A stretch of 59,850 nt of DNA from an uncultured Erysipelotrichaceae bacterium (GTDB taxonomy: Bacteria; Bacillota_I; Bacilli_A; RF39; UBA660). Positions within the stretch are counted from its first letter, which is position 1. Every line of letters starts with the position of its first letter. The stretch lies in NCBI GenBank assembly GCA_902776735.1, contig CACYRE010000004.1:1-59850 (forward strand), in the 5' to 3' direction. The position numbers were made by a program, and so were the translations under genes. The notes under the pieces are model-generated. The model did not search any database, was not told the origin of the DNA, and saw only the letters and a list, made by a program, of their open reading frames with translations. This document shows, piece after piece, positions 4,567 through 34,707 of the stretch.

Positions 4567-4643
4567 TGGGGCGTCCTAAGAGGATCGAACTCTTGCATAC
4601 TAGTGCCACAAACTAGCGTGTTAACCACTTCACCAAGGGCGCC
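4567..4643 (-). tRNA. tRNA-His (GTG) with encoded CCA and G-1
   Basis: The minus strand reads GGCGCCCTTGGTGAAGTGGTTAACACGCTAGTTTGTGGCACTAGTATGCAAGAGTTCGATCCTCTTAGGACGCCCCA. The anticodon arm is CTAGT-TTGTGGC-ACTAG, a T-arm GTTCGATCC is present, and an extra 5' G pairs with C73. Confidence 0.9.
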
Positions 4644-6511: not shown

Positions 6512-6580
6512 AAATACTTTTTAATAATTTAATTTTGATATATAATGAGTATTGTAGGGAATAAAAGAGAGTGAGGGTTT

Positions 6581-7550: not shown

Positions 7551-7578
7551 TATTTAATTATAATGGAGGGTGATTTAA

Positions 7579-10500
7579 TTGAAAAAAATAATGGATGGTA
7601 ATGAAGCAGCCGCATATGTTTCATATAATTTTACGGAGGTAGCAGGAATATATCCAATTACTCCAGCATCTCCAATGGCGGAACTTACGGATAAATGGAG
7701 CAGTGAAGGTAAGATAAACTATTTTGGAACACCAGTAAAAATAGTTGAAATGGAAAGTGAGGCAGGAGCAGCTGGGATGGTTCATGGTTCTTTGATGGCT
7801 GGTTGTTTAACTACGACATATACTGCTAGTCAAGGACTACTTCTAATGATTCCTAATATGTATAAGATTGCAGGAGAGCTTCTTCCTTGTGTAATTAATG
7901 TAGCAGCGAGAAGTCTAGCAACTCATGCCTTATCAATATTTGGTGATCATCAAGATATTTATGCTGTAAGACAAACAGGTTTTGCAATGCTTGCATCTTC
8001 ATCTGTTCAACAAGTAATGGACTTAACTGGAGTTGCCCATTTATCAGCAATAAAAGGAAGAGTACCATTTGTTAATTTCTTTGATGGCTTTAGAACAAGT
8101 CATGAATTACAAAAAGTAGATGTAATTGATACCAATAAATTAAAGAATCTAATTGATAAAAAAGCCTTATCTGAATTTAAACAAAGAGCTCTTAATCCTA
8201 ATAAGCCAGCAATTCATGGTACAGCTCAAAATGGCGATATTTATTTTCAAGCTAGTGAAGTAAGAAATACTTACTATGATAAAGTACCAGATATTGTTAA
8301 TGAATATATGAGTGAGGTTAATAAAATAACTGGATGTGACTATAAGCCATTTAATTATTATGGTAATCCAACAGCTAATAAAGTAATTGTTGCAATGGGA
8401 TCAGTTTGTGAGACTATTAAAGAAACAATAGATTACTTAGTACATGAAAAAAATGCTCCCGTAGGACTTCTAGAAGTTCACTTATATAGACCATTTAGTG
8501 CAAAATATTTCTTAAAAGAATTACCTAAGAGTGTCAAAAAAATAGCCGTTCTTGATCGTACTAAAGAAGCAGGTTCTTCTGGAGAGCCATTGTATTTAGA
8601 TGTAATTAAAACAATAAAAGATATTGATGCTAAAGTAAGTGTCTATGGTGGAAGATATGGACTATCTTCTAAAAATACAACACCGGCTATGATTAAGGGC
8701 ATTTATGAGTTTTTAGATACAAGAGATGTTCATACTAATTTTACTGTAGGTATTGAGGATGATGTTACTAATTTAAGTATTCCATACGATAAAAAGTTTG
8801 TAATACCAAATAAAAAGAATGTTGCTTTCTTAATATATGGTTATGGAAGTGATGGTATGGTATCAGCTTCTAAAGACATTATGAAAATTACTGGTACCTA
8901 TACTAATGCTTATGTTCAGGGTTACTTCCAATATGATTCTAAAAAAAGTGGTGGAATAACTATTTCTCATTTAAGATTTGCTAATAATCTTATTAGATCG
9001 ACTTACTATGTACAAAAAGCAAATATCATTGTCTGCACAAAAGACAGTTACCTAACAAGTCTTAAAATGTTAGATACTATTCAAGATAATGGAATATTTT
9101 TACTAAATACAAATAAAAATCCTGATCAAGTACTTGCTACTATGAATAATAATGATAAAAGAATTTTACAAACTCGCAAGATTAAAATGTTTATAGTTGA
9201 TGCTGATAAAATAGCTAGAGAAGTTGGTCTACCTGGAAAAATTAGTACTATAATGGAATCTCTTATTTTTAAACTTGGTCATATTGTTGACTTTAACTTT
9301 GCTATTGATAAGATAAAAGAAAATTTAAATGATAAGTTTAAAAATAAAGGTGGAAATGTTGTTGAAAAGAATTATCAAGCAATAGACGCTTCTCTTAACT
9401 CTCTAGTTCCAGTAAAAATTCCATATGTTGATTTTGATTTTGAAGTTATGCCTAAGAAGAGTTTCTTTGAAACAATTAATTCCTTAGAAGGAGATAACTT
9501 ACCAGTAAGTACTTTCTTAAAGAGACCAGATGGTGAATTTGAAGCGGGAACTTCTAAATATGATAAAAGAGATAGTAGTGAGATTGCTCCAGACTATTGT
9601 TCAGAAAATTGTATAGGTTGCAATCTCTGCAGTTTAGTTTGTCCTCATGGTGTAATTAGGCCATTCCTACTTGATGAAAAAGAAGTAATGGACGCTCCTG
9701 ATTCTATGAGAGATAAACTAATTAATGCTAATATAAAAGATAAAGATTATAAATTTTCAATAGGTGTTGGTTTAGAAGATTGTACTGGTTGTTCTTTATG
9801 TGCAGAAGTATGTCCTGGCAAAAAAGGTGCAAAAGCTCTTGTTATGAAAATGAAAGAAAAAATTAAAGCAGATAAGAAAGACACTGAATATAAGTATTTA
9901 TTTAATGAAGTAAGTGAAAAGAAAAATGTTATGCCAACAAATACGGTTCGTGGCAGTCAATTTGTAAAGCCTAAATTTGAGTTTTCTGGAGCTTGTGCAG
10001 GATGCGGAGAAACTCCTTACCTAAAACTTCTTACTCAATTATTTGGCGATAGAATGGTAATTGCTAATGCAACAGGTTGTTCTTCAATTTATGGTGCTAG
10101 TGCTCCTTCAATGCCATATTCAATTCCTTGGGCAAATTCTTTATTTGAAGACAATGCTGAATTTGGCTTTGGTATGAAAGTTGCTGATGAGACAATCAAA
10201 GGTCAAATTATTAATTTAATTGAAAATAACATGGATAAAGTTAGAAATAGTGAAAAAGAAACTTATAAGTCCTATCTTGAAAAACAATCTATAGAAAATG
10301 CTAAAGCTTTACTTGAAATAATTGATAACACTAGAATTGATGACTTATTAAAGTATAAAGATTTTATTGCTCCAAAATCAGTTTGGATGGTAGGAGGAGA
10401 TGGTTGGGCCTACGATATTGGTTATAATGGTATTGATCATGTCCTAGCAAACAAAGAAAATGTTAATATTTTAGTTCTTGATACAGAAGTATATTCTAAT

Positions 10501-14984: not shown

Positions 14985-16088
14985 TTAGTACAAAGTATTC
15001 ATTATTTTGACTATATCTTCCATTTTATTTTTGAATAGATGAGAGTATGTGTTTAGGGTCTCATCTATTTTTGTATGTCCTAAATATTTTGCAACTATCA
15101 TGATATTTGCTCCATTATTAATAAGAAGTGAAGCACAAGAGTGTCTGAAGTCATGTAGTCTTATTGGTTTTACTCCAGATTTACTAGCTAGAAGATTTTT
15201 TCTAACTCTCATTCTTTCTTGAGTAATGGGTTTAACATCTCCAAATACATACCATTTATTATTAAATCCAAAATACTTTTTACAATTACTCTTTAGAATC
15301 TTTAAATCATCTGCAAGTGTTTGAGTAAGTGGTATAGTTCTAACACTTTTTTTACTTTTTGGAGTTGTTACATAAACTTTACCATCGACTGTGACTACAT
15401 TTTTCTTAACAGATAAAGTCATTTCTTCAAAATTAATATTATCCCATGTAAGACCTCTTAATTCTCCTAGTCTTAATCCACAAAAATATAAAACTTCAAA
15501 TGCTGATTTAAATAGAATTTCATCTTCGTATGATATGAATTGTTTAAATTCTTCTAGAGTATAGAATTCCATTTCTTTTGGTAAAGCATTGGGATCTACA
15601 AACTTTTCCATTTTATTATATATTTGTGTAAAATTGAAATCATGCCATCTAGTTCCATAATTAAGAATCTCTTTAAAGAATTTATGATATCCATTTTTAG
15701 TTTTAATAGCACAATCTCTTTTAGACATCCATCTTCTCCAAGACAAGTAATGATTAATATCAAAATCTTTAATTTTTACATTATGAATCGGCTCTAGAGA
15801 ATTAATTCTTTCTCGATATGATTTTAAAGTTGTTTCTTTTACTTTATCTGATTTATATTCATAGAATTCTTCATATAATTCAATAAAAGTCATATCGGTA
15901 ATATTAATTTCTTTTCTTCTCATTTTACGAAGTCTATTTGCTTCGGCAACTTGAGCTTCTTTTCTTGTAGCAAATTTTTTTGAATGATATTTTCTTTGTT
16001 TACCGTTTTCATCGAAATAATAAACTTGATAATACCATCTATATCCTTTAGATGTTGCATTCTCTTTAATACATTGGTTAACTGACAT
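14985..16088 (-). CDS. int: Tyrosine recombinase / phage-type integrase (island 1)
   Basis: Motifs FCGLRLGELRGL (Arg), HDFRHSCAS (HxxR), YLGH and LNTYSHL (Tyr). AGGAGG RBS. The protein is collinear with the integrase at 20844-21950. Confidence 0.9.
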   Translation of the reverse strand: MSVNQCIKENATSKGYRWYYQVYYFDENGKQRKYHSKKFATRKEAQVAEANRLRKMRRKEINITDMTFIELYEEFYEYKSDKVKETTLKSYRERINSLEPIHNVKIKDFDINHYLSWRRWMSKRDCAIKTKNGYHKFFKEILNYGTRWHDFNFTQIYNKMEKFVDPNALPKEMEFYTLEEFKQFISYEDEILFKSAFEVLYFCGLRLGELRGLTWDNINFEEMTLSVKKNVVTVDGKVYVTTPKSKKSVRTIPLTQTLADDLKILKSNCKKYFGFNNKWYVFGDVKPITQERMRVRKNLLASKSGVKPIRLHDFRHSCASLLINNGANIMIVAKYLGHTKIDETLNTYSHLFKNKMEDIVKIMNTLY

Positions 16089-20843: not shown

Positions 20844-21950
20844 TTAACTTAAATTATCCATAGTTTTTACTATCTCATCCATTTTATTTTTAAATAGGTG
20901 AGAATAGGTATTTAATGTTTCATCAATCTTAGCATGACCTAGATATTTTGCAACAATCATAATACTTGCACCATTATTTATTAAAACTGAAGCACATGAG
21001 TGTCTAAAGTCATGGATTCTTATTTGCTTAACACCAGATTCTTGAGTATATTTATTTTTCTGATGTCTTAATATATGAGCTGATAAAGGTTCTTTATCTC
21101 CAAATACAAACCATTTTTGATTAAAGCCGTATTGTTTCTTATCTCTTAAATATAATTCATGTAGATCTTTCATGACTCTTTCTGGAACTGGTAATGTTCT
21201 AACACTGGTTCTAGTTTTGGGAGTGGTAACATAACATTTGCCTCCTTCACCTTCTTGAACAACATTTTTAACCACCGAGAGCTCTCTATTAAAGAAATCT
21301 ATATTATCCCAGCTTAGACCTCTTAATTCACCTCTACGAAGGCCACAAAAGTATAATACTTCAAATAATGCTTTCCATTTAATATCATCTATTACTGATA
21401 AGAATTGTTTAAATTCTTCCCAAGTATAGAATTGCATTTCTTTTGGTGGCTTGTTTGGATTACTAAACTTTTCCATTTTGTTATAAATAGAAGTGAAGTT
21501 AAAATCATGCCATTTAGTTCCATAATTAAGAATAGTCTTCAATAATTTATAATATCCATTCTTAGTTTTATCAGCTAGATCTAATGTACCGATTCTCTTT
21601 CTCCAAGCAATATAGTGTTCTAACTTAATATCTTTAATCTTTAGTTCATAGAATTCACTTAATTCTTTAATATTAACTCTATATGTTCTTAAAGTAGATG
21701 TTTTAACTTTATCTTTCTTATACTCATAAAATTCTTCATAGAGTTGTTTAAATGTCATTCCAGTAACATTTATTTCTTTAGTTTCATATCCTACTAAGAA
21801 ATCTCTTTCTGCTTTTAAAGCTTCATTTCTAGTCATATAACTTCTAGACATATATGGTTTGGTTTTACCATCAACCTTTATCTTGTCATAAAAATACCAT
21901 CTTCTACCATCTTTGGTAGCTCTTTCTTTTGGTAACTGTAATACAGCCAT
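20844..21950 (-). CDS. int: Tyrosine recombinase / phage-type integrase (island 2)
   Basis: Motifs FCGLRRGELRGL, HDFRHSCAS, YLGH and LNTYSHL. Long runs are identical to the island 1 integrase (LYEEFYEYK, WHDFNFT, IYNKMEKF, IMIVAKYLGH, KIDETLNTYSHLFKNKM). Confidence 0.9.
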   Translation of the reverse strand: MAVLQLPKERATKDGRRWYFYDKIKVDGKTKPYMSRSYMTRNEALKAERDFLVGYETKEINVTGMTFKQLYEEFYEYKKDKVKTSTLRTYRVNIKELSEFYELKIKDIKLEHYIAWRKRIGTLDLADKTKNGYYKLLKTILNYGTKWHDFNFTSIYNKMEKFSNPNKPPKEMQFYTWEEFKQFLSVIDDIKWKALFEVLYFCGLRRGELRGLSWDNIDFFNRELSVVKNVVQEGEGGKCYVTTPKTRTSVRTLPVPERVMKDLHELYLRDKKQYGFNQKWFVFGDKEPLSAHILRHQKNKYTQESGVKQIRIHDFRHSCASVLINNGASIMIVAKYLGHAKIDETLNTYSHLFKNKMDEIVKTMDNLS

Positions 21951-25374: not shown

Positions 25375-26910
25375 ATGAAAAAATATACAATTGATAACTA
25401 TATAATTGATATTGATAAATATGGTTTGAAAAAAACATGGCATACAATACTATCAAAAACATTAAATAACACATTTAATTCTGATATTTTCAATATTAGT
25501 AATTATGGTGAATTATATGAAATAGGTTTAGAACATGTAAATAAGATTAGCAAAAAAGAAATGGGTAAGTATTACACTCCGAGAGATGTTTCAAATGTAA
25601 TGTCTAATTGGTTAGCACCATTAAAAGGGGATAATGTTTGTGATGTAGGATGTGGAGCTGGAAATTTAATACTATCTTATCTTGATAACTTAAATAAAAG
25701 TGATGCAATTAGATTAATAAGTAATGGAAATATATATTTGTACGATCTTGATGATATTGCACTAGAAATATGCAAATATTCAATTGCTATAAAATATGGT
25801 AAAGAGTACTTAAGAAAAATACATGCTAAACATTGTGATTTTTTAGATAAAGATATTAAATTACCTAAGAATGCAAAAGTAATATCTAATCCACCATATT
25901 ATAAAATAATAGAGGATGGAAAGAATTGGAAAATTACTAATGTAATATCCGATTCTAGAGAATTATATTCTGCATTTATTGAGAAGATTATAACTCAAAG
26001 TGATTCATCTGTTATTATTACTCCGTACAGTTTTATTGGTAGTGGTAAATTTTATTCGTTAAGAAAAGTAATGAATAAGTATAATGGTTTTGTTGTTTCA
26101 TTTGATAATGTTCCTGGAAATATATTTAATGGAAGAAAACATGGAATTTTTAATTCTAATAAAGGTAATTCAGTTCGTGCAGCAATTACAGTTGTTGAAA
26201 ACAGAGACAATGTTAAAGGATTTAGATTCAGCCCATTAATCAGATTTAAAACTGAGGAAAGAAATAAAATGTTAGATAATAATGTTTTATATTCTTTAAT
26301 AAATGATAGATATCAAATAGTTGATTCTAGACACAAAGCATATTATAAATGTCATTCAGATCTATTAAGTATCCTTGACGCTTGGGAGCAAAAATCTGAT
26401 AAAAAAATGAGTAATTTAATTGAACAAAATGACGGAAATGAAATATATTTACCAACAACATGCAGATATTTTACTGTAGGATCTAAGAGAAATTTATTAA
26501 GAGATGGTAAAAGAGTAATTAAAGTTAAAAATAAAAATACATACAATTATGTCTATTGTATGATGAATTCTACTTTTGCATATTGGTATTGGCGATTGTA
26601 TGATGGTGGAATAAATTGTCCATTAACTATTATTAATACTATTCCTGTATTTTTAGATCTATTTAATGAAAAACAATTAAATAAAATGAATTCTTTAGCA
26701 GAAGAAATGCAAAGTAAAGAAAAAGAGTATTTGGTTTATAAAGTAAATGCTGGTAAAAAACAAGAGAACATTAAATTTCCTAAAAAGTATAGAAATGAAA
26801 TTAATAAGCTATTCTTTGATGTATTGGAAATTGATAAAAACATTAGTGTGTTGAATAAAATACATAGTAGTTCTTTATTTGAAGAAAGTGAGAGTGAAGA
26901 GAATGAATAA
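25375..26910 (+). CDS. Gamma-class N6-adenine DNA methyltransferase with its own target-recognition region
   Basis: Motifs YYTPRDV, VCDVGCGAGNL (motif I) and VISNPPYY (motif IV). Confidence 0.85.
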   Translation: MKKYTIDNYIIDIDKYGLKKTWHTILSKTLNNTFNSDIFNISNYGELYEIGLEHVNKISKKEMGKYYTPRDVSNVMSNWLAPLKGDNVCDVGCGAGNLILSYLDNLNKSDAIRLISNGNIYLYDLDDIALEICKYSIAIKYGKEYLRKIHAKHCDFLDKDIKLPKNAKVISNPPYYKIIEDGKNWKITNVISDSRELYSAFIEKIITQSDSSVIITPYSFIGSGKFYSLRKVMNKYNGFVVSFDNVPGNIFNGRKHGIFNSNKGNSVRAAITVVENRDNVKGFRFSPLIRFKTEERNKMLDNNVLYSLINDRYQIVDSRHKAYYKCHSDLLSILDAWEQKSDKKMSNLIEQNDGNEIYLPTTCRYFTVGSKRNLLRDGKRVIKVKNKNTYNYVYCMMNSTFAYWYWRLYDGGINCPLTIINTIPVFLDLFNEKQLNKMNSLAEEMQSKEKEYLVYKVNAGKKQENIKFPKKYRNEINKLFFDVLEIDKNISVLNKIHSSSLFEESESEENE

Positions 26911-28090
26911 AAAAGAAGCAATTAGTGAATTAATTAATACTATTTATAATAATAATTCTGATCTAATACTTTCAGAAAGTGATATAAAAAGATTAAATAA
27001 CTTTTTCAAAGAAGTTGATCAATTCAGTAAACAATTTGATGCATTTTTAGAGGAAAATTCTGAAAAAACAAAAGGAATTTCTAAATTAAAAAGTGGCAAA
27101 TATGAAATGGAAAAACAGTATAATCAAAATAGAGCATTACAACCAGGTATTTTATCTGAATGTAATTATGTTGAAACTTTAGCTAAAATATTTAATTTGA
27201 ATAAATGTTTAGATTTTGATAGGACTCCAATGAATCAAGTTCCAATTGAATGTAGAAATTATCTTAACTCTGGATATCAGACATTTTCAGCAGCAAGATA
27301 TTTGTACTATAGTACAAAAAATCCCGATATATTTATATTTCAATATGGTAATCCTGCAAACGGTGATGCTGAAATAATCATCAATGGGAATAAGGTTAGA
27401 CTAGAATTCAAAGAAAGAAATGCCAAAGCAGGGGAATATGATATTACAGGATTGTATGATGATGAAGGTAAGCTGTTGATTTCTGATGATTTTAGAAAAA
27501 ACACTCCAGAATATATTCCTTTTATTGAGAAATTTAATAACGAAACAAATGTAATAGAACAAATTGGTCATAATTATAATGACTTTGATGATGAAACAAA
27601 AGTTTTGTCTGTTATGGAATATTTTGCAAGACATGACATTGATGCTATTGTTTCATCAACTTCAAATAATGAATTAGTTGTACTAACACCTGAATGTGTA
27701 AAAATAGAATTACCAGATGGTAGAAGGATAATTACGACAGAGAATAGTGAAATAAGAACATCAGGAAGAAATCACAGAAAAATATTTACCAAAAATTTAT
27801 TTATGAATGTCCTAGACCAAATGAATGCTGTAGAGATAGATAAAGATAAATATGAAGTGTCACTAGACAATGAATTAGTAGAAATAGTAAATGGTCGTGG
27901 CACAAGTACACCTAGTAGAATTAAATTCAATAAAGTGTTTTTTGTGGATATTAATGATGCTATCATTGAAAATGATAAAGTTGTATTTAATATTAACGAT
28001 GTTGAGCAATTAAAACCATCAATCTCTATGCATATAAAAATTAATGCAACAAAGGATGAATTAAAGGATTATTTTGAAAAGAAAGATTAG
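26903..28090 (+). CDS. Putative cognate restriction endonuclease (PD-ExK-like)
   Basis: ATG 26903 overlaps the methyltransferase stop by 8 nt. NGDAEIIINGNKVRLEFKERNAK fits D-x13-ExK. There is no other recognisable motif. Confidence 0.45.
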   Translation: MNKKEAISELINTIYNNNSDLILSESDIKRLNNFFKEVDQFSKQFDAFLEENSEKTKGISKLKSGKYEMEKQYNQNRALQPGILSECNYVETLAKIFNLNKCLDFDRTPMNQVPIECRNYLNSGYQTFSAARYLYYSTKNPDIFIFQYGNPANGDAEIIINGNKVRLEFKERNAKAGEYDITGLYDDEGKLLISDDFRKNTPEYIPFIEKFNNETNVIEQIGHNYNDFDDETKVLSVMEYFARHDIDAIVSSTSNNELVVLTPECVKIELPDGRRIITTENSEIRTSGRNHRKIFTKNLFMNVLDQMNAVEIDKDKYEVSLDNELVEIVNGRGTSTPSRIKFNKVFFVDINDAIIENDKVVFNINDVEQLKPSISMHIKINATKDELKDYFEKKD

Positions 28091-28107
28091 AGATGTAGGT
28101 GCTATTT

Positions 28108-28740
28108 ATGAATAATGAATACGGGTATATATATGTTTATAAGTGTATGGTAGGATCTGGTTCTGATGTTTGTAAAATTGGAATTACAAAAAATTATCAA
28201 GAAAGATTAAAAGACCATGTAAGAAGACCATATCATGGTTTTGTACCTTATGCTGAATTTACAACTGGAAAGGCAATTGCAACAGTATTTAAAATAAGCA
28301 ATTTTTCTTTTGCTGATAAGTACATTAAAGAATTGTTCAGTAACTATCAATTTGGGAATTATGAAATATATAATGTTGATTATGATGAAACAATAAAAAA
28401 ACTATATTTTGGTTTAAAAGATAGAAATGCCTTTGTTGAATTAATTGAAGACGGATATAGTTTATATGATTTTGCAGTTGATGAATCAAGGCAAGAATCA
28501 GATACTACAACAAAAAAAGATTTTGAATTAATAAAAGAACAAATCATTGATAGGTATAATGACAACTTACCAGAAGAATTACTATTGATGCTAAGAGATA
28601 AGAATGATTTTAAAGAAAACTGTAAATCACATTATAATACTGGTAATTATATTTGCTTCAGTACCAATATGATTTTGGATTTAAATTACAACAAAGAAAA
28701 GAGAATTGAAATTTTAAAAAAGCTTAAAAAATTTGTTTAA
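28108..28740 (+). CDS. T5orf172 / GIY-YIG-like domain protein
   Basis: YGYIYVYKCMVGSGSDVCKIGITKNYQERLKDH matches the T5orf172 (PF10544-type) N-terminal pattern. Confidence 0.6.
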   Translation: MNNEYGYIYVYKCMVGSGSDVCKIGITKNYQERLKDHVRRPYHGFVPYAEFTTGKAIATVFKISNFSFADKYIKELFSNYQFGNYEIYNVDYDETIKKLYFGLKDRNAFVELIEDGYSLYDFAVDESRQESDTTTKKDFELIKEQIIDRYNDNLPEELLLMLRDKNDFKENCKSHYNTGNYICFSTNMILDLNYNKEKRIEILKKLKKFV

Positions 28741-28745
28741 AAATA

Positions 28746-28779
28746 ACCAGACGTGAAAAAATATCTGGTTTTATTTTTC
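28746..28779 (+). terminator. Terminator separating the RM/T5orf172 unit from the downstream block
   Basis: ACCAGA-N12-TCTGGT followed by TTTATTTTT. Confidence 0.5.
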
Positions 28780-28866
28780 AATATTAATATATATATGAAT
28801 CATAAAAAAAGACTATCAATTTATAAATATAGTAATCATGGTATAATGGTATTGAATGGAGGATCT

Positions 28867-30078
28867 ATGAACAGTAAGAAAATTATAAAGATAAGTATAG
28901 ATAGAAATAAATTTATTAATGTAGATGGTTCACTAGATTTAACTAGTAGAGTTCTTGAAATCTATATTGCTTTTAATAAATTTGAAGAAGCCTTTAATTT
29001 CCCCACTAGAGAATTATTTTTACATCCTGAAAAAATCAATGAGAATAAAGTAATATATGTTGTTGATGAAAATGGAACATATTATAGTTGTTTTAATTGC
29101 ATATTTGGTTTTAAATATAATGATCCATTACAAATATATTCATCCCCAATTGATTTCATTATAGAAAATGCAATAAGTGATACTAATAACATAAATGTAG
29201 ATAAGATTATCTTTAAGACATCATTACCAAGAAAATATTCTTTATATATTTTAAATATGCATATCAAATACACAAGAACAAAAGATATTTTTATAAATAA
29301 ATCCTTTGACAATGATAAAATGATTATTGAATATTCTATAACAAGTAATAAAAAAACAGAATATAAGAAATTATCTGAGATTATGTATTCTTTGCTTGAA
29401 TTGTCTTTTTTATGTCTAGGTGATATACCTAAAATTGAAAAAGTAAGTGTATATGGTGAAAATGCAATGAATTACTATTTTGCATGTGCACCAAAATATA
29501 TTCAAAGAGCTAATATATATAGTTCTAGCACAAATGGCGTTTTAGCATGTATAGAGCCAGGAACTATTTCTAGCAATTTAGTAAAAGATTTTATTAAATT
29601 TAGAAAAAATACTAAAATATTATTTGATTTGTTAATGATTCACATGAATGGCGATGGTTACTTAGAAATGACCAATTCAATGTTAGTTCAATTGTTAGAA
29701 GGTTTCTATAAAACAAATAATCCTGGTACAAATAAAGAACTACGTGAAATATTAGATTTTTATTATATTCAAAATCCTGTAATAAAAACATTATTGGTTA
29801 GAAGAGATTTAAAAAAAGCAGGAGATGTTCATAATACACCGATCTTTTTACTAAAAGCAAAAGAACATAGACATTATCTATCTCATTTAAATATGAATGA
29901 ATCAAAAAAAGTGTTCTTCCAATTAGAAAATAATTATGCATATTGGAAATTATGCCATGGGTTAAGGATATATATTATGCAAATTATTTCGTTGCCTATT
30001 AATATTGAGGAATATGATAAATTTAAAAATTCAGTTGAAAAATGGGCAAAAAGTCATAGATTAAGATATAAAAAATAA
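28867..30078 (+). CDS. Unknown 403-aa protein (gene A), weakly ApeA/HEPN-like
   Basis: GGAGG RBS lies before ATG 28867, and an extended -10 TGGTATAAT lies at 28840-28848. The C-terminal helical part contains KEHRHYLSH (Rx4H). The N-terminal part is beta-rich. Confidence 0.6.
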   Translation: MNSKKIIKISIDRNKFINVDGSLDLTSRVLEIYIAFNKFEEAFNFPTRELFLHPEKINENKVIYVVDENGTYYSCFNCIFGFKYNDPLQIYSSPIDFIIENAISDTNNINVDKIIFKTSLPRKYSLYILNMHIKYTRTKDIFINKSFDNDKMIIEYSITSNKKTEYKKLSEIMYSLLELSFLCLGDIPKIEKVSVYGENAMNYYFACAPKYIQRANIYSSSTNGVLACIEPGTISSNLVKDFIKFRKNTKILFDLLMIHMNGDGYLEMTNSMLVQLLEGFYKTNNPGTNKELREILDFYYIQNPVIKTLLVRRDLKKAGDVHNTPIFLLKAKEHRHYLSHLNMNESKKVFFQLENNYAYWKLCHGLRIYIMQIISLPINIEEYDKFKNSVEKWAKSHRLRYKK

Positions 30079-30124
30079 TTGTTTGGAAAAAGTTAATGCA
30101 AATGTGATATAATATTCATAGTTG

Positions 30125-30155
30125 AGATATCATTAATATGATATCTTTTTCTTTT
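30125..30155 (+). terminator. Terminator/attenuator-like hairpin between gene A and gene B
   Basis: AGATATCAT-TAAT-ATGATATCT followed by TTTTTCTTTT. It lies downstream of an extended -10 (TGATATAAT, 30105-30113) and 18 nt upstream of ATG 30173. Confidence 0.5.
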
Positions 30156-30172
30156 CATTAAAGGAGGTTATT

Positions 30173-31414
30173 ATGTATAAGATAGATTTAAATCCTGATG
30201 TAGCAACTTACTTTAGAAATACCATAAATGAATATATTAATTTATCTATGAAACATGAATATAAGCACAGAAATAAGAAATTGGAAAATTCTTGGAATTC
30301 TATATGTTCCATTATGGATAGAATTGATGATTTGGTATATTATTTAAATCAAAAGGAATTAAATAACGGATTATGGAAAAATTGTGCTTTTGATTTTTTC
30401 GAATTTATTGAGCAAGCTGGAGTATTAGTTAGCTGTATTGATGATGCATTTGCAATATATAATGTTCAATTTCCACATCATAATGTTATTTTTAAATCAA
30501 AGAAGCTAAACCCTAATGTTACAATTACAAAGAACACATGTGAGCTTGATGATTCTTACTTTATGTATATAAGATCTCTAAGTTCGGTTCATCCAAGTGA
30601 TACATCACATCATAAGGAGTTTCAAGAAGCGGATTTTGAAGTGAGCCCATATGTTGTCTGGAATAAAGGAGTTTTAACTTTAAATAATCCAAATGCTGAT
30701 TTAGTTCTTGTATCATATAATAATGAAACTTCTGATTTTTTAACAAACAAAGGTGTCATTATTGATGAAATATTTAATTACATTAAATACAAATATTATT
30801 CTTTGAATTATTTATCTAAAAAAATAGCAATTCACTATAAACAAATAATTGCCAATTTTAGATTATCAAAAATAAAAAAGTCACCAGAATTTGGTGATTA
30901 TGTTAAATATTTAAATAATTTAAAGGAAGAAGCATTGAAAAGAAATCCCGATATGGAATGTGAAATTCAAGAATTCATAGATATTTTTAATTTAAAAATA
31001 ACAAACAAAAATAATGAAATAAAGTTTGAGAAATATAAGAATGCATTAAAGTATGCAATACAGTCATTTCATAGGCAACTTCAAAACATGGATTTTAACT
31101 GTAGATCACCCTTTGATAGATTAATTGGAGAATTATTGTTAGGAGAAATCTATTTTAAAGATGATAACTATCATTATCCTTTAAGTAAAATATTATACTT
31201 GAAAGATGCAACAGGTGATAAAAATTTTGGATTAAGTATGTATAAATGTTTGTTAGGTGTATTTGAAAAATATGTCGATGTATCAGAAGAGGATTTATAT
31301 CAACTAGATTACTACGAATTATATGTTTTATCGCAAATAGCATTATATTTTCATGCATTAGATTATGATAATGACATTAGTAGGTATATTCCAAGCCAAG
31401 ATATGTATAGATAG
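30173..31414 (+). CDS. Unknown 413-aa protein (gene B)
   Basis: AAGGAGG RBS. The only motif noticed is YIRSLSSVHPSD (Rx5H). Confidence 0.6.
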   Translation: MYKIDLNPDVATYFRNTINEYINLSMKHEYKHRNKKLENSWNSICSIMDRIDDLVYYLNQKELNNGLWKNCAFDFFEFIEQAGVLVSCIDDAFAIYNVQFPHHNVIFKSKKLNPNVTITKNTCELDDSYFMYIRSLSSVHPSDTSHHKEFQEADFEVSPYVVWNKGVLTLNNPNADLVLVSYNNETSDFLTNKGVIIDEIFNYIKYKYYSLNYLSKKIAIHYKQIIANFRLSKIKKSPEFGDYVKYLNNLKEEALKRNPDMECEIQEFIDIFNLKITNKNNEIKFEKYKNALKYAIQSFHRQLQNMDFNCRSPFDRLIGELLLGEIYFKDDNYHYPLSKILYLKDATGDKNFGLSMYKCLLGVFEKYVDVSEEDLYQLDYYELYVLSQIALYFHALDYDNDISRYIPSQDMYR

Positions 31415-31424
31415 GGGGGATATA

Positions 31425-32279
31425 GTGAATACAAGTAATTATGTAAAGAAAATTAATGATTATAAAAAATGCATGAAAGTATTAGAATGTGCACATAGAA
31501 TTTATATAGATGAAATTGATAATTTTGAATTCAAAAAAATAAGTAAATATAATAAGTCAAGAAATATGTATAATAAAATATCAACTGATTTTAAGGTGGT
31601 AAACTATTTAATTGAAAAAGAAGATTTATTTAATGCTGCCACAGTACTTAGAACTTTATATGAGAATATAATATACATAATTGCAACCTCATATGATAAA
31701 AAAATGATTGTAACATTGGATACTACGCCTAAAGAATTGAGAAAAATTTTAGAAGATAATTGTAATGTTATATTTACTGATTATTTTGAAAAAGAAGACT
31801 TTAATAGTATATATAAATACTTGTGTAAAATAGTACATCCAAGTAGTATGAAGGAACTTGTTTCATACCTAGTTAATACAATTAAGTATAAATCATATAT
31901 GATTAATAATTTAAAGTATATGATGATTGTTGTTGAATACATGTATTTAAATTATCTCAACAAAAAAATTAAAAATGAAGATAATAAGTTTGATTTAAAT
32001 TTTGTTGATTGTTGTACATATATTAATCTAGTCAATATTAGCTATTATATAATAAGTATTAAAAATAGTACTAATAGTATAAAGAGATTTATGTACTATG
32101 ATACAAAAAATAAATATGTAGAAGAAAACATGAAGATATGTGAACAATTATCTGTTGAACTTAAAAATAATAAAAATAGTATAGAAAAAAATATAAAAGA
32201 GTTAACTAGAGAATTAGATTTGCAAATTAATGAAAGCAAATATAAAGAATTAGTTAGCACTATTTTAAAAAACAAATAG
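31425..32279 (+). CDS. Unknown 284-aa protein (gene C)
   Basis: GTG 31425 lies 5 nt after a GGGGGG RBS and 10 nt after the gene B stop. It is helical, and LRTLYENIIYIIA...LCKIVHPSS vaguely recalls AbiV/DUF5677-type proteins. Confidence 0.5.
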   Translation: MNTSNYVKKINDYKKCMKVLECAHRIYIDEIDNFEFKKISKYNKSRNMYNKISTDFKVVNYLIEKEDLFNAATVLRTLYENIIYIIATSYDKKMIVTLDTTPKELRKILEDNCNVIFTDYFEKEDFNSIYKYLCKIVHPSSMKELVSYLVNTIKYKSYMINNLKYMMIVVEYMYLNYLNKKIKNEDNKFDLNFVDCCTYINLVNISYYIISIKNSTNSIKRFMYYDTKNKYVEENMKICEQLSVELKNNKNSIEKNIKELTRELDLQINESKYKELVSTILKNK

Positions 32280-32287
32280 GAGATTAT

Positions 32288-32776
32288 ATGGATAACTTTG
32301 AACAAGAATATAATAAATTGAATGAGGTTTCTAAAATGGCAGTTAATGCGTATAGAAGTGGTCGGCAGTTTATGATGACTGGAATACACACTTCTGGAGC
32401 TGGCATAGTAGTTAATAGCAGGCTGTATCCAACTATTATTGCCTCAGTTGTTAATGAAGTGTTTGCATGTGAATTGTTTCTTAAATCCATGATAATGATT
32501 AAAACTGGTGAAAAATCAATAAAAAAACATAAATTATTAGAATTATATGATTTGCTTGGCATTGAAACAATCGAAAAAAGCTTATCAAAATATGATTTTA
32601 AAGATGAGCTACAAAAGATAAGCGATTCATTCATTACATGGCGTTATTGTTATGAATATGGCACAATTGTTATTAATAGGGGATTTGTATTTGAATTATG
32701 TAATGTTTTAGAAAATGAAAATAAAAAAATAATTTTTAAAGAATATAATCTTAATATGGATCAATCGTTTATCTAA
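32288..32776 (+). CDS. Unknown 162-aa protein (gene D), HEPN-like helical pattern
   Basis: TAGGAGA RBS; the start is 8 nt after the gene C stop. The pattern is VFACELFLKSMI...KKHKLLELYDLL...WRYCYEYG. Confidence 0.5.
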   Translation: MDNFEQEYNKLNEVSKMAVNAYRSGRQFMMTGIHTSGAGIVVNSRLYPTIIASVVNEVFACELFLKSMIMIKTGEKSIKKHKLLELYDLLGIETIEKSLSKYDFKDELQKISDSFITWRYCYEYGTIVINRGFVFELCNVLENENKKIIFKEYNLNMDQSFI

Positions 32777-32830
32777 TTTATGTAACAAAACAAAAAAACA
32801 AAAATCATATCTAACTTTTAACACATTATA

Positions 32831-32872
32831 AAAATATGTTAAAAAAATATTAAAATTTTAACATATTTTTTA
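32831..32872 (+). terminator. Terminator after the four-gene block
   Basis: AAAATATGTTAAAA-N13-TTTTAACATATTTT, a 14-bp stem plus a T-run. Confidence 0.6.
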
Positions 32873-32895
32873 TTGAAATTTTATAATATTTTGCT

Positions 32896-32918
32896 TTTAC
32901 ATTAACTTTTACATTAAC
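32896..32918 (+). repeat. Island 2 right arm-type repeat (TTTACATTAAC x2)
   Basis: TTTACATTAACTTTTACATTAAC, located 106 nt before att core copy 3. Confidence 0.7.
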
Positions 32919-33024
32919 ACCCATACAAATTTTGATAAACTGTGATAAATTGATAAGACTCACAAAACCTTATTTTATAAGTAATTTAAACTTTTGTATA
33001 AGAGATAACTCGTCTAAAAAATCG

Positions 33025-33036
33025 ACCCCCTGAAGA
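33025..33036 (+). repeat. att core copy 3 (attR of island 2, probably the displaced native sRNA 3' end)
   Basis: ACCCCCTGAAGA is followed by GAGCCCGAAAGTGCTC and a T-run, forming a terminator-like hairpin. Confidence 0.65.
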
Positions 33037-33187
33037 GCCCGAAAGTGCTCATTTTTGTTTACTTTAAAGGATTTGAGGCCTATTAAATTATTTAGGTACT
33101 AAGCTAGGTACGTAAATTTAATAAATTTCCAAAAGTAGGTAAAAATACTTAGTTCTGGAAAAATATTTCCAAAACTTTTTAATTATA

Positions 33188-33216
33188 TTGACAAAATTAC
33201 TGATAAACGATAAAAT
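33188..33216 (+). promoter_or_regulatory. abiE promoter with a flanking inverted repeat
   Basis: TTGACA (33188-33193), 17 nt, then TAAAAT (33211-33216). TTGACAAA (33188-33195) and TTTGTCAA (33226-33233) form an 8-bp inverted repeat bracketing the -10. Confidence 0.5.
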
Positions 33217-33245
33217 ACCAGTAGATTTGTCAAGGAGGAATATTT

Positions 33246-33872
33246 ATGGAAAGGATGACAATAAAAGAATTTAAAGAAGAAAGTAATATAGAAATTATAG
33301 AATCTATTATGAAAATGAATAATGGATATGTTACTTCAAAAGAACTTGATAATTATGGAATTCATAGAATGTATCTTAATACCATGTGGAAAAAGGGTAT
33401 GATAGAAAAAGTTGCAAATGGTATATACATTGATTCAAATAAAATAGAAGATAGTTATTATGTTTTCAGTCTTAGTATGCCTAATACAATATTTTCTCAT
33501 ATGACTGCACTTTATTTTCATGGACTATCTATTAAAGCTCCAAATGATAAATACGATATAACAGTAAGAAAAACATATAATAGTAAACATCTAAAAAATC
33601 ATGAGGTTTTTTATGTATCAGATGATATTTATGACCTTGGCCTTACTGAAGCAGAAACTCCAATGGGAAATAAAGTAAGAGTCTATGATATTGAGAGATG
33701 TATATGTGATATTATAAGATCTAAAAATAGGATGGATCTAGAACACGTTAAATATAGTATTAGAGAATATATAAAAAGAAAGGACAAAGATCTTATAAAA
33801 CTTTCTAAATACGCAGATAAAATGGGGATAAGAAAAGAAGTAATGGATTTTGTGGAGTTATTTTATGAATAG
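33246..33872 (+). CDS. abiEi: Type IV toxin-antitoxin AbiEi-family antitoxin
   Basis: The N-terminal winged-helix region MNNGYVTSKELDNYGIHRMYLNTMWKKGMIEKVANGIY is followed by FSHMTALYFHGLS. Confidence 0.75.
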   Translation: MERMTIKEFKEESNIEIIESIMKMNNGYVTSKELDNYGIHRMYLNTMWKKGMIEKVANGIYIDSNKIEDSYYVFSLSMPNTIFSHMTALYFHGLSIKAPNDKYDITVRKTYNSKHLKNHEVFYVSDDIYDLGLTEAETPMGNKVRVYDIERCICDIIRSKNRMDLEHVKYSIREYIKRKDKDLIKLSKYADKMGIRKEVMDFVELFYE

Positions 33873-34707
33873 CATGCAATTAAAAGATAAACTAAGAAAT
33901 ATTTCTAAAGAAAAGAATGTAGATTTTAATACATTACTTAGACTTTATATGTATGATAGATTTTTAGAAAGACTTTCAAAAAGTAAATATAGAGATAATT
34001 TTATTTTAAAAGGTGGATTCTATTTAAGCACTTTATTTGGGGTGGAGAATAGAGCAACCATGGATATTGATACTGCATTTAGAAATGCTAGCTTTGATGA
34101 AGAAACGATTATTAAAATGATACACGAAATAGTATCCATAAAAATAGATGATAATGCTAAACTATCGTATTTAGGAATAGAACCAATCAGAGATGAAGAT
34201 GAATATGGTGGTTTTAGAGTAACTATTCAAGTAGAATATGAGACTATGAAACAATCTTTTCATATTGACATAGCTACTGGTGATCCTATTACACCAAAAG
34301 AAATAAGGTATAAATATTTACCTTTATTAGGCGATTATTATGTGGATTTATATGCTTATAACATGGAAACAGTTTTGGCTGAAAAAATAGAAACAATGTT
34401 AAGTAGATTAGAGTTAAATGGAAGAACAAAGGACTTTTATGATATATATTTAATTTATAAAAAGGAATGGCAAAATATCAATATAGATCATTTTAGAAAA
34501 GCAATTGATAAAACATTTACTAAAAGGGAATATAATGGTAATCCATTTGAAGCTTTAGATATTATAAGAAATAGTAAAGTTTTAAAAGAAAGATGGAATA
34601 AATATCAAAAGAACTTTTCTTATGCTGAAGGAATAGAGTTTGAAGATATAATGGATTGCTTAGAAATAATGATGAACAATTTAAGTTTTCTATTATTAAT
34701 AAAGTAA
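33865..34707 (+). CDS. abiEii: AbiEii/DUF1814 nucleotidyltransferase toxin
   Basis: Motifs FNTLLRLYMYDRFLERL, FILKGGFYL and RATMDIDTAF. ATG 33865 overlaps the abiEi stop. Confidence 0.8.
   Translation: MNSMQLKDKLRNISKEKNVDFNTLLRLYMYDRFLERLSKSKYRDNFILKGGFYLSTLFGVENRATMDIDTAFRNASFDEETIIKMIHEIVSIKIDDNAKLSYLGIEPIRDEDEYGGFRVTIQVEYETMKQSFHIDIATGDPITPKEIRYKYLPLLGDYYVDLYAYNMETVLAEKIETMLSRLELNGRTKDFYDIYLIYKKEWQNINIDHFRKAIDKTFTKREYNGNPFEALDIIRNSKVLKERWNKYQKNFSYAEGIEFEDIMDCLEIMMNNLSFLLLIK

What the first reader, a model, noticed from the sequence alone, without database searches (positions are those of the whole stretch)
28867..32776. Four-gene block of unassignable proteins inside a defence-loaded integrative island: best candidate for an undescribed system
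Seen in sequence:
- Four co-oriented ORFs of 403, 413, 284 and 162 aa follow the RM/T5orf172 unit in island 2.
- All four have good RBSs. Genes B, C and D are separated by only 10 and 8 nt.
- The block is separated from the RM unit by a terminator (28746-28779) and an extended -10 (TGGTATAAT, 28840-28848). It ends with a strong terminator (32831-32872).
- I could not match any of the four to an enzyme family.

The only motifs noticed are Rx4H in gene A (KEHRHYLSH, C-terminal helical part) and Rx5H in gene B (IRSLSSVHP). Genes C and D show helical patterns that loosely recall AbiV/HEPN-type proteins (LCKIVHPSS; ACELFLKSMI...HKLLELYDLL).

Caveat: Rx4-6H is short and is expected by chance at appreciable frequency in 400-aa proteins, so the HEPN idea is only a hypothesis.

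Inference: the genomic context makes an anti-phage or abortive-infection role likely. That context is mobile island cargo next to an RM system, with AbiE and a KAP/Mrr pair nearby. It could be a multi-HEPN module or something unrelated.
Basis: partly seen in the sequence, partly recalled or inferred. Interest (0 to 1): 0.8.

Follow-up and report, generated by a model that had tools for sequence, protein, structure and literature searches.

The report
Stacked HEPN-type defence genes, not one system
The four "unassignable" genes are real and conserved, but they are two separate units: a stand-alone ApeA-like RNase gene, and a portable three-gene cassette (an orphan protein, a DUF5677 protein and a small HEPN protein) that sits behind restriction genes in many gut Bacillota and is probably an RNA-cutting backup defence against phages.

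Summary
Four co-oriented ORFs are present: A 28867-30078, B 30173-31414, C 31425-32279 and D 32288-32776. All have good RBSs, the gaps are 10 and 8 nt, and dN/dS is 0.08-0.14.

The "one four-gene system" reading does not hold.
- A was absent from every B- or C-bearing locus fetched, apart from one sister island.
- A has its own promoter.
- A occurs alone elsewhere.

What the four genes look like:
- **A:** it carries an invariant R[H/N]YLSH motif, and 10 of 26 relatives weakly match Pfam HEPN_Apea.
- **B-C-D:** this is a discrete cassette (30100-32776) with its own -10 box and leader hairpin. Its parts also occur separately, as B-C, B alone, C alone behind HsdR, GmrSD or SNF2 genes, and RT-C-D.
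- **C:** a divergent DUF5677 protein (28 of 51 relatives match). Its best, non-significant fold hits are HEPN proteins and AbiV.
- **D:** a divergent classical HEPN protein (32 of 50 relatives match PF05168).
- **B:** a confident model (pLDDT 90) with no structural or profile match, and an invariant Rx5H.

None of the four families matches PADLOC.

Best reading: stacked HEPN-type abortive-infection modules attached to restriction genes, probably working like PrrC. The mechanism is inferred, not shown.

The parts
28745..28780 (+). AT-rich hairpin plus U-run after the T5orf172 gene. It is terminator-like and marks the 5' boundary of unit 1.
   Evidence: -8.6 kcal/mol, z = -2.4. The sequence is shown. 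It is not called by the G+C-rich terminator rule.
28820..28847 (+). Promoter-like site with a TG-extended -10 box (TTTATA-16-TATAAT) upstream of gene A.
   Evidence: This is a consensus match only.
28867..30078 (+). Gene A, 403 aa. It is a stand-alone protein with an N-terminal domain of unknown type and a C-terminal ApeA-like HEPN region (KEHR335-HYLS-H340-LNMN).
   Evidence: 28 homologue clusters. R335, L338, S339, H340, N342 and N344 are invariant. 10 of 26 relatives weakly match PF18739 HEPN_Apea, best E 5e-4. It occurs alone in L030 and L047-49. dN/dS is 0.13.
30084..30113 (+). Promoter-like site with a TG-extended -10 box (TGGAAA-18-TATAAT). It marks the start of the B-C-D cassette.
   Evidence: Homology between the window and L007 begins at 30100. 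The -10 box is conserved in L028 and L007, and an equivalent is present in L001.
30124..30156 (+). Leader hairpin (10 bp) plus U-run, lying between the -10 box and the Shine-Dalgarno sequence of B. It travels with B, not with the upstream gene.
   Evidence: -13.2 kcal/mol, z = -2.8. Hairpins of different sequence sit at the same place in L001 (z = -4.9), L005 and L011, each behind a different upstream gene. No such hairpin is found in L012 or L003.
30173..31414 (+). Gene B, 413 aa. It is an orphan alpha/beta protein with an invariant YIR134-SLSSV-H140-P141 motif.
   Evidence: 83 homologue clusters, none with a Pfam domain. Invariant residues are listed. The AF2 model has pLDDT 90 and pTM 0.82. 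There is no Foldseek match in PDB or BFVD, no PDB sequence match and no consistent Pfam family in 38 members. dN/dS is 0.13.
31425..32279 (+). Gene C, 284 aa. It is an all-alpha, divergent DUF5677 protein. Conserved residues are R76, E80 and Y84 (LRTLYE) and K135, H138, K143 and E144 (KIVHPSSMKE).
   Evidence: 124 homologue clusters. 28 of 51 family members match PF18928, best E 3.6e-8; the window protein itself scores 19.2 bits against a cut-off of 27.1. The AF2 model has pLDDT 85. The top Foldseek hits are HEPN proteins 4nqf (prob 0.75), 2q00 (prob 0.82, TMt 0.65) and AbiV 9bj6, all with E > 0.1.
32288..32776 (+). Gene D, 162 aa. It is a small classical-type HEPN protein with the pattern ACE62-LFL-K66 ... 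H81-KLLEL ... W118-R119-Y120-CYE123.
   Evidence: 250 representative clusters at E <= 1e-3. Invariant residues are listed. 32 of 50 family members match PF05168 HEPN, best E 5.3e-7. The window protein itself has no significant hit.
32824..32875 (+). AT-rich hairpin plus U-run after D. It is terminator-like.
   Evidence: -10.4 kcal/mol, z = -2.3. Homology with L007 ends at 32776.

Best explanation
The block is two adjacent cargo units of a defence island, not one system.

**Unit 1, gene A.** This is a self-contained, single-gene effector that resembles ApeA. An N-terminal domain acts as sensor or oligomerisation module. A C-terminal HEPN RNase domain forms its catalytic site from the invariant R335-x4-H340 of two subunits. 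By analogy with ApeA, it is held inactive until infection and then cuts host RNA (tRNA in ApeA), stopping phage growth.

**Unit 2, the B-C-D cassette (30100-32776).** This is a co-transcribed cassette with its own promoter and leader hairpin. It is assembled from three modules that can each move separately. C (DUF5677, HEPN-like) is the hub, because it is the module found behind many different restriction or defence genes. D is a small classical-type HEPN partner. B is an orphan-fold protein with an invariant Rx5H that often sits just downstream of R-M genes or an integrase.

**Proposed mechanism for unit 2 (inferred).** It works like PrrC and the other R-M-linked HEPN genes. C, with or without D, forms a latent HEPN-type RNase. 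B is the sensor or regulator, or a second effector. RNA cleavage is released when the neighbouring restriction barrier is bypassed or inhibited, giving abortive infection.

**Shown versus inferred.**
- Shown: gene integrity, family assignments at family level, modular distribution, cassette boundaries and defence context.
- Inferred: RNase activity, protein-protein interactions, the trigger and the anti-phage effect.
For: **A is a separate unit**
- A is absent from all fetched B- or C-bearing loci except the sister island L028/L029.
- A occurs alone in L030 and L047-49, and in other defence contexts in L044 and L046.
- Promoter-like sites lie upstream of A and in the A|B spacer, which also holds a hairpin plus U-run.
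- The A|B spacer belongs to B: homology between the window and L007 starts at 30100.

**A is HEPN/ApeA-like**
- It has an invariant R[H/N]YLSHLNMN motif.
- 10 of 26 relatives match HEPN_Apea.
- ApeA is a HEPN anticodon nuclease acting as a single-gene abortive-infection system (bioRxiv 10.64898/2026.01.26.701840).

**B-C-D is a cassette**
- The gaps are 10 and 8 nt.
- B-C-D recurs in three independent backgrounds: window/L028, L007, and L001/L002/L008.
- Its boundaries are exact.

**The modules are separable**
- B-C occurs without D in L005, L006, L009 and L010.
- B occurs alone in L003, L011, L050-53 and on Bacillus plasmids.
- C occurs alone behind HsdR, GmrSD, SNF2/PLD and other genes in L016-L026.
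- An RT-C-D-SIR2 arrangement occurs in L015.
- D-like genes sit directly behind HsdM and GmrSD-HNH genes.

**Family assignments**
- C matches DUF5677 and has HEPN/AbiV-like top fold hits.
- D matches PF05168.

**Purifying selection**
- All four genes are under purifying selection.

**Precedent**
- At least 16 HEPN clades are linked to R-M systems, and a PrrC-like release model has been proposed for them (PMC3710099).
Against: - No window protein passes a curated threshold on its own.
- C's fold hits have E-values of 0.28-2.2, which are not significant.
- C and D lack a canonical Rx4-6H motif. C has R76xxxE80 and a separate H138. D has H81 and R119-Y120 with no following His.
- B has the motif but no detectable HEPN fold.
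- hhalign finds no relation among A, B, C and D.
- Because B, C and D each occur alone, they may not interact at all.
- A single DUF5677 ORF from lactic acid bacteria gave no protection against six E. faecalis phages (PMC12632615).
- No experiment bears on any of these four families.
Confidence: 0.55

Rival explanations
1. All four genes form one obligate four-component defence system.
For: The four genes are co-oriented and contiguous in the window, and again in the sister island L028/L029. More distantly, A-type proteins do pair with this kind of partner elsewhere: an A homologue sits next to a DUF5677 protein in L031, and a D-like HEPN gene sits next to an A homologue in L044.
Against: - A is absent from every other B- or C-bearing locus.
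- The cassette shared with L007 starts at B's promoter.
- The A|B spacer holds a separate promoter-like site and a hairpin.
- A occurs alone between housekeeping genes in L047-49.
- Between the window and L028, divergence is mosaic: C 97%, A 81%, B 79%.
Confidence: 0.07
2. B, C and D are three autonomous single-gene defence or toxin genes that are simply packed into one transcript. There is no physical or functional interplay between them.
For: - Each gene occurs without the others in several independent loci.
- C from loci that lack B is closer to the window's C (61-66% identity) than C from the L005-type B-C loci is (33% identity). This argues for repeated shuffling rather than co-evolution.
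Against: - The gaps of 8-10 nt carry no internal promoter.
- B-C recurs in four backgrounds and C-D in four backgrounds, including RT-C-D.
- HEPN enzymes work as dimers, so paired HEPN-like genes plausibly form hetero-oligomers (established knowledge; one search shows this for ApeA and HepT).
Confidence: 0.22
3. The genes are toxin-antitoxin-like addiction modules that stabilise the integrative island or the adjacent R-M genes. They are not phage sensors. D, or the leader RNA, would act as antitoxin to C or B.
For: - HEPN toxins are classic TA components, and AbiV is a type III TA with an upstream RNA antitoxin that includes a hairpin.
- A conserved leader hairpin precedes B.
- The genes lie on integrase-bearing islands and on plasmids.
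Against: - No MNT or other known antitoxin partner is adjacent.
- There are no ToxI-like tandem repeats and no Rfam match.
- C commonly occurs without D or B, so neither can be its obligate antitoxin.
- TA function and abortive infection do not exclude each other.
Confidence: 0.12
4. B, C and D are non-nuclease accessory or regulatory subunits of the neighbouring restriction-modification enzymes.
For: They are repeatedly positioned immediately 3' of hsdR, GmrSD, MTase and MutH-like genes, with gaps of 6-110 nt.
Against: - The upstream partners belong to unrelated enzyme classes: type I, type IV, SNF2/PLD, an Abi-type RT and an integrase. A specific subunit role is therefore unlikely.
- The B cassette carries its own promoter.
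- B in Bacillus plasmids follows an integrase, not an R-M gene.
Confidence: 0.04

Closest known systems
ApeA (Gao et al. 2020). A single-gene HEPN defence system that acts as a ligand-activated tRNA anticodon nuclease (bioRxiv 10.64898/2026.01.26.701840).
   Same: Gene A is a single, self-sufficient-looking gene with a C-terminal HEPN region and an invariant R-x4-H. 10 of 26 relatives weakly match Pfam HEPN_Apea. It is scattered across defence islands.
   Different: A is 403 aa, against about 580 aa for the E. coli ApeA proteins. No member matches the PADLOC models. The Pfam hits are below threshold. The N-terminal domain has no detectable similarity to any known domain, and I obtained no structure for A.
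AbiV of Lactococcus. A HEPN RNase with an upstream RNA antitoxin (type III TA).
   Same: C's model has AbiV (9bj6, 9bj7) and bona fide HEPN proteins (4nqf, 2q00) among its best fold matches. It is all-alpha, lies in a defence island, and the cassette has a structured leader RNA.
   Different: There is no Pfam HEPN_AbiV hit, and the Foldseek E-values are not significant. C lacks a canonical Rx4-6H. C is 284 aa against 201 aa for AbiV, and it belongs to DUF5677. The hairpin precedes B, not C. Many C genes have no such leader.
PrrC/EcoprrI and other R-M-linked HEPN genes (Anantharaman et al. 2013, PMC3710099).
   Same: B, C and D-like genes are repeatedly found immediately beside type I, type IV and other restriction genes. 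HEPN-type domains in that position have been proposed to act as a second-line suicidal RNase.
   Different: There is no ABC-ATPase fusion. No phage activator or R-M interaction is known. The families are distinct from PrrC and RloC. The cassette has its own promoter and also occurs away from R-M genes.
HEPN-MNT (type VII) toxin-antitoxin pairs, Pfam PF05168/PF01909.
   Same: D's family matches PF05168 in 32 of 50 members. It shows the classical E-x3-K, H-x-L-x2-L and RY signature.
   Different: There is no adjacent minimal nucleotidyltransferase. AbiEii lies about 1.1 kb downstream and belongs to its own AbiEi/AbiEii pair. D has no His 4-6 residues after R119.
AbiA/AbiK/Abi-P2-type defence reverse transcriptases with HEPN partners.
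   Same: In L015 an RT that matches PDB 7r08 at E 5.7e-81 (to my knowledge this entry is Abi-P2) is followed at 12 nt by C and then D. This recalls the RT-HEPN fusion of AbiA.
   Different: In the window the upstream partner of C-D is B, not an RT. The HEPN-like parts are separate genes, not fused domains.

Membership tests
HEPN superfamily (gene A) | A conserved Rx4-6H motif with a polar residue after the Arg. | tested here: met
   R335-[H/N]-Y-L-S-H340 is invariant in 26 sequences down to 36% identity.
HEPN superfamily (gene A) | A match to a HEPN family profile at the curated threshold. | tested here: inconclusive
   The window protein has no HEPN hit. 10 of 26 relatives match PF18739 HEPN_Apea, but only weakly (best E 5e-4).
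HEPN superfamily (gene A) | A four-helix HEPN fold that dimerises to form a composite active site. | not tested
ApeA defence system | Recognition by the ApeA model of PADLOC. | tested here: not met
   Neither the window protein nor 15 A-family members gave a PADLOC hit at E <= 0.1.
ApeA defence system | A single-gene system, not dependent on fixed neighbours. | tested here: met
   A homologues stand alone in L030 and L047-49, and they have varied neighbours elsewhere.
DUF5677 (PF18928) (gene C) | A profile match at Pfam's gathering score. | tested here: inconclusive
   The window protein scores 19.2 bits against a cut-off of 27.1. 28 of 51 family members match at E <= 0.01, best 3.6e-8. 9 of 120 listed relatives carry a precomputed PF18928 hit. 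hhalign to a bona fide DUF5677 protein (L031) failed, although the R-T-[IL]-Y-E motif is shared by eye.
AbiV / HEPN_AbiV (gene C) | A canonical Rx4-6H motif and a HEPN_AbiV profile match. | tested here: not met
   There is no PF18728 hit. R76 is followed by E80, not His. H138 lies on a different helix.
AbiV / HEPN_AbiV (gene C) | A HEPN fold. | tested here: inconclusive
   The top Foldseek PDB hits are 4nqf (E 0.28, prob 0.75), 2q00 (prob 0.82, TMt 0.65, rmsd 3.4) and AbiV 9bj6 (prob 0.28). None is significant.
Classical HEPN PF05168 (gene D) | A profile match. | tested here: inconclusive
   The window protein has no hit. 32 of 50 family members match PF05168, best E 5.3e-7. The invariant residues E62, K66, H81, R119 and Y120 fit the classical signature (the signature itself is recalled from my own knowledge).
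HEPN-MNT type VII TA (gene D) | An adjacent minimal nucleotidyltransferase antitoxin. | tested here: not met
   D's neighbours are C upstream and a terminator-like hairpin downstream. The nearest NTase is AbiEii, which is paired with AbiEi.
PrrC/RloC anticodon nucleases | An ABC-type ATPase domain fused to the HEPN nuclease. | tested here: not met
   No P-loop or ABC family hit was found in A, B, C or D, or in their relatives.
PrrC/RloC anticodon nucleases | Genomic embedding in or next to an R-M operon. | tested here: met
   B, C and D-like genes lie directly 3' of hsdR, hsdM, GmrSD, MTase and MutH-like genes in many loci. The window block follows an MTase, an unassigned ORF and a T5orf172 gene.
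Type III toxin-antitoxin (ToxIN/AbiQ-like) | Tandem repeats encoding an RNA antitoxin upstream of the toxin gene. | tested here: not met
   No meaningful tandem array lies in 28000-33400 and there is no Rfam match. Only a single leader hairpin is present.
Any known family (gene B) | Any profile or fold match. | tested here: not met
   Pfam, NCBIfam, PHROGs and PADLOC found nothing. The PDB sequence profile search found nothing credible. Foldseek against PDB and BFVD gave a best E of about 1 despite a model with pLDDT 90.

The most novel reading that the evidence does not exclude
B-C-D is a previously undescribed three-component abortive-infection system. In it, B is a protein with a new fold and an invariant Rx5H site. 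B senses a phage cue, or the failure of the adjacent restriction enzyme, and releases a C-D hetero-oligomeric RNase of HEPN type. The conserved 5' leader hairpin acts as an attenuator or as an RNA ligand that keeps the complex silent. DUF5677 would then be a widespread, swappable effector module that plugs into many different sensors: B, Abi-type RTs, A-type HEPN proteins and restriction enzymes.
Probability: 0.2. Interest if true: 0.7.

Novelty: new variant of a known kind. Interest (0 to 1): 0.5.

Why it matters
- It gives DUF5677 a concrete, testable role. This Pfam family has essentially no literature: two papers mention it, and one tested it alone and saw no protection. The proposed role is a portable HEPN-like module attached to the 3' end of restriction and other defence operons.
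- It flags an orphan-fold family (B) that is tied to R-M genes and integrases.
- It adds a short ApeA-like lineage (A) from gut Bacillota.
- If the cassette proves to be a restriction-linked backup RNase, it would extend the PrrC paradigm to new protein families. It would also explain many "hypothetical" genes at the ends of R-M operons in low-GC gut bacteria.
- It is a caution against reading contiguous co-oriented ORFs in defence islands as a single system.

Tried and rejected
- **Direct scans.** I scanned the four window proteins against Pfam, NCBIfam, PHROGs and PADLOC and found nothing significant. The weak RnlB_antitoxin hit in A (E 0.012; 9 of 26 relatives) lies upstream of the Rx4H motif, and I treated it as noise.
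- **PDB sequence searches.** Profile searches of PDB sequences with the A, B, C and D alignments found nothing credible.
- **Fold searches for B.** Foldseek of the B model against PDB and BFVD returned only GPCR and helical-repeat noise.
- **Profile comparisons.** I ran hhalign on every pair of the four families except B versus C in reverse, to test whether they are paralogous HEPN domains or whether A and B are analogous partners. No relation was found.
- **C versus DUF5677.** hhalign of C's profile against the single DUF5677 protein of L031 failed.
- **Viral contigs.** IMG/VR scans found no relatives of A, B or C, so there is no support for a phage-structural origin.
- **PADLOC at family level.** A scan of 64 family members found nothing.
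- **Leader consensus fold.** RNAalifold on the B leaders gave no consensus because MAFFT did not align the non-homologous hairpins. Folding each leader singly was informative instead.
- **Antitoxin RNA.** Searches for ToxI-like repeats and Rfam families found none.
- **A as part of the cassette.** I considered this and rejected it on distribution and on the homology boundary.

Full report
**1. What is in the sequence**

The window is about 25% G+C. Four co-oriented ORFs lie at the stated coordinates:

| Gene | Coordinates | Length |
|---|---|---|
| A | 28867-30078 | 403 aa |
| B | 30173-31414 | 413 aa |
| C | 31425-32279 | 284 aa, GTG start |
| D | 32288-32776 | 162 aa |

- The N-termini of C's homologues support the GTG start over the upstream in-frame ATG.
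- Each start is preceded by a good Shine-Dalgarno sequence.
- The B|C gap is 10 nt and the C|D gap is 8 nt.
- AT-rich hairpins followed by U-runs close the T5orf172 gene and follow D.
It contains a TG-extended -10 box (30084-30113) followed by a 10-bp hairpin and U-run (30124-30147).
- The surrounding genes fit an integrative defence island. They are a tyrosine integrase (20844-21950, minus strand), an N6-adenine MTase, an unassigned 403-aa ORF, a T5orf172 gene, then A-D, then AbiEi/AbiEii and an HTH protein. An alpha-amylase gene follows.

**2. The genes are real**

| Gene | Homologue search result |
|---|---|
| B | 83 clusters |
| C | 124 clusters |
| A | 28 clusters |
| D | 250 representative clusters at E <= 1e-3 |

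- Against a sister island (L028/L029) dN/dS is 0.13 for A, 0.13 for B, 0.08 for C and 0.12 for D.
They are invariant across their families.
  - A: R335/H340, within KEHR[H/N]YLSHLNMN.
  - B: R134/H140/P141, within YIRSLSSVHP.

**3. Is it one system? No**

*A is separate from B-C-D.*
- tblastn and HMM searches of all fetched loci found A together with B-C-D only in the window and in L028/L029. That locus is the same island at about 80% identity.
- The nucleotide homology between the window and the Erysipelotrichaceae MAG contig L007 begins at 30100, which is B's -10 box. It ends at 32776, which is D's stop codon. This delimits a B-C-D cassette that excludes A.

*Where A homologues occur:*
- alone beside an integrase (L030);
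- alone between serS and purA (L047/L048);
- behind Hachiman genes (L044);
- behind SMODS and DUF4238 genes (L046);
- once directly upstream of a bona fide DUF5677 protein (L031/L032).

*Architectures found for B, C and D:*

| Arrangement | Loci |
|---|---|
| B-C-D | window/L028; L007; L001/L002/L008 |
| B-C, no D | L005, L006, L009, L010, behind hsdMSR |
| B alone | L011 behind an MTase; L050/L051 behind a MutH-like gene near BREX; L052; L053 beside a Dam-like MTase; B. cereus-group plasmids directly behind an integrase |
| C alone | L016-L026, just 3' of HsdR, GmrSD, an SNF2/PLD helicase and others |
| RT-C-D-SIR2 | L015; the RT matches PDB 7r08 at E 5.7e-81 |
| D-like small HEPN behind other genes | HsdM with a 4-nt overlap, GmrSD_N-HNH and DUF7662; once just upstream of an A homologue |

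- C from loci without B is more similar to the window's C (61-66% identity) than C from the L005-type B-C loci is (33%).
- Divergence between the window and L028 is mosaic. C and the MTase are 97% identical, A is 81% and B is 79%.
- Both patterns point to frequent module exchange.

**4. What the proteins are**

*A*
- 10 of 26 relatives give weak HEPN_Apea hits, best E 5e-4.
- Together with the invariant canonical motif, this makes a C-terminal HEPN domain likely.
- ApeA is a single-gene, ligand-activated HEPN anticodon nuclease.
- A is shorter than the E. coli ApeA proteins and is not recognised by PADLOC.

*C*
- 28 of 51 family members match DUF5677, best E 3.6e-8.
- The AF2 model is confident, with pLDDT 85 and pTM 0.85, and it is all-alpha.
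- Its best PDB matches are HEPN proteins (4nqf, 2q00) and AbiV, but their E-values are not significant.
- Its conserved residues are R76, E80 and Y84, plus K135, H138, K143 and E144. This is not a canonical Rx4-6H.

*D*
- 32 of 50 family members match Pfam HEPN PF05168, best E 5.3e-7.
- E62, K66, H81, R119 and Y120 are invariant.
- There is no partner nucleotidyltransferase.

*B*
- The model is confident, with pLDDT 90 and pTM 0.82.
- It has no structural match in PDB or BFVD.
- It has no sequence-profile match in Pfam or PDB.

*All four*
- hhalign finds no relationship among the four families.
- None of 64 family members matches PADLOC-DB v2.
- A, B and C have no relatives in IMG/VR viral contigs.

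**5. The cassette leader**

- Upstream of B, a -10 box is followed by a strong hairpin, a U-run and the Shine-Dalgarno sequence. This arrangement appears in four sequence groups: window/L028/L007, L001, L005/L010 and L011.
- The hairpin sequences differ between groups, and the upstream genes differ too (A, an SLFN-like helicase, HsdR and an MTase).
- L012 and L003 lack the hairpin.
- The element therefore belongs to B. It could attenuate expression of a toxic operon, stabilise the mRNA, or serve as an RNA ligand. The last idea is speculative and rests on the AbiV precedent.
- No tandem repeats and no Rfam family are present.

**6. Mechanism**

*Shown:* two independent transcription units, family-level assignments, modular distribution and defence neighbourhoods.

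*Inferred for A:* it acts like ApeA, as a latent oligomeric HEPN RNase that cuts host RNA on infection.

*Inferred for B-C-D:* it acts like the R-M-linked HEPN genes described by Anantharaman et al. 2013.
- That study found at least 16 HEPN clades linked to R-M systems and proposed a PrrC-like release model.
- Under this model, C with or without D forms the HEPN-type effector.
- B is a sensor, a regulator or a second effector.
- Activation occurs when restriction is bypassed.

*Weaknesses:*
- The fold evidence for C is sub-threshold.
- C and D have non-canonical active-site motifs.
- There is no evidence of interaction between B, C and D.
- A DUF5677 ORF tested alone in E. faecalis gave no protection (PMC12632615).

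**7. Verdict**

- The HEPN and defence interpretation is partly supported.
- The four-gene unity is rejected.
- I rate novelty as a new variant of a known kind. These are HEPN-based abortive-infection modules tied to restriction, built from uncharacterised families (an A lineage, DUF5677, a small-HEPN lineage) and one orphan fold (B).
- Interest is moderate at 0.5. The candidate is plausible and testable, but it is one of many in defence islands, and the modularity weakens the case for a single new multi-component machine.

Noticed in passing
window 30084-30156; also L007 2640-2705, L001 7946-7990, L005 7944-7990 and L011 1616-1655: A -10 box, a strong hairpin, a U-run and then the Shine-Dalgarno sequence precede gene B in four sequence-divergent groups, whatever the upstream gene is. 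The hairpin sequence differs between groups but its position and strength are kept. It could be an attenuator, an mRNA stabiliser or an RNA ligand.
   Followed up: partly
L031 7001-9297 (also L032); L044 4550-6330: A homologues pair with other HEPN-type genes elsewhere. In L031 a 36%-identical A homologue is followed after 20 nt by a bona fide DUF5677 protein (348 aa, PF18928 E 1.5e-23). In L044 a D-like small HEPN gene (175 aa) sits 44 nt upstream of an A homologue, behind Hachiman genes.
   Followed up: partly
L015 519-4217: This is a tight operon of an Abi-type reverse transcriptase (PDB 7r08 match, E 5.7e-81), a C homologue, a D homologue and a SIR2 protein. Here C-D accompanies a known defence RT instead of B.
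   Followed up: partly
window 25375-33037 versus L028 6513-14136: Divergence within the same island is mosaic. The MTase and C are 97% identical (dS about 0.1). A, B, D and T5orf172 are 79-89% identical (dS 0.4-1.0). This implies allele swapping of individual defence genes inside one island backbone.
   Followed up: no
window 33172-34707; L005 10539-12035: The AbiEi/AbiEii module, including its promoter region, is 81% identical at nucleotide level to one that again lies directly downstream of a B-C pair in an otherwise different locus (type I R-M upstream). This is a recurrent B-C | AbiE neighbourhood.
   Followed up: no
window 33026-33121; L006 10317-10413: A noncoding patch of about 100 nt downstream of the cassette is conserved at 79-82% in L006, where it lies downstream of C. 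It contains a plus-strand hairpin plus T-run with changes that appear compensatory in a two-sequence alignment (GAGCC..GTGCTC versus GAGAGC..GCTCTC), and two TAGGT[AG]C direct repeats. Homology with L028 ends at 33037, inside this patch.
   Followed up: partly
L054 (NC_012473.1) 5978-8287; L055 (NZ_CP072692.1) 5977-8272: On large Bacillus cereus and B. thuringiensis plasmids, a site-specific integrase is followed after 55 nt by a B homologue (31-33% identity). The cargo just beyond it varies (a NACHT protein in one plasmid, an HNH endonuclease in the other), and a HEPN-MNT pair lies nearby. The pair looks like a recombinase-marked defence hotspot.
   Followed up: no
window 26879-28090: A 403-aa ORF overlaps the end of the MTase gene and precedes T5orf172. 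It has no Pfam match, and its L028 counterpart (395 aa) has none either. It is presumed to be the restriction endonuclease, but this is unverified.
   Followed up: no
window 14985-16088 (-), 20844-21950 (-), 4567-4642 (-): A second long minus-strand ORF (367 aa) lies 5 kb upstream of the confirmed integrase. A tRNA-His gene lies at 4567-4642. The island boundaries and att sites were not determined.
   Followed up: no
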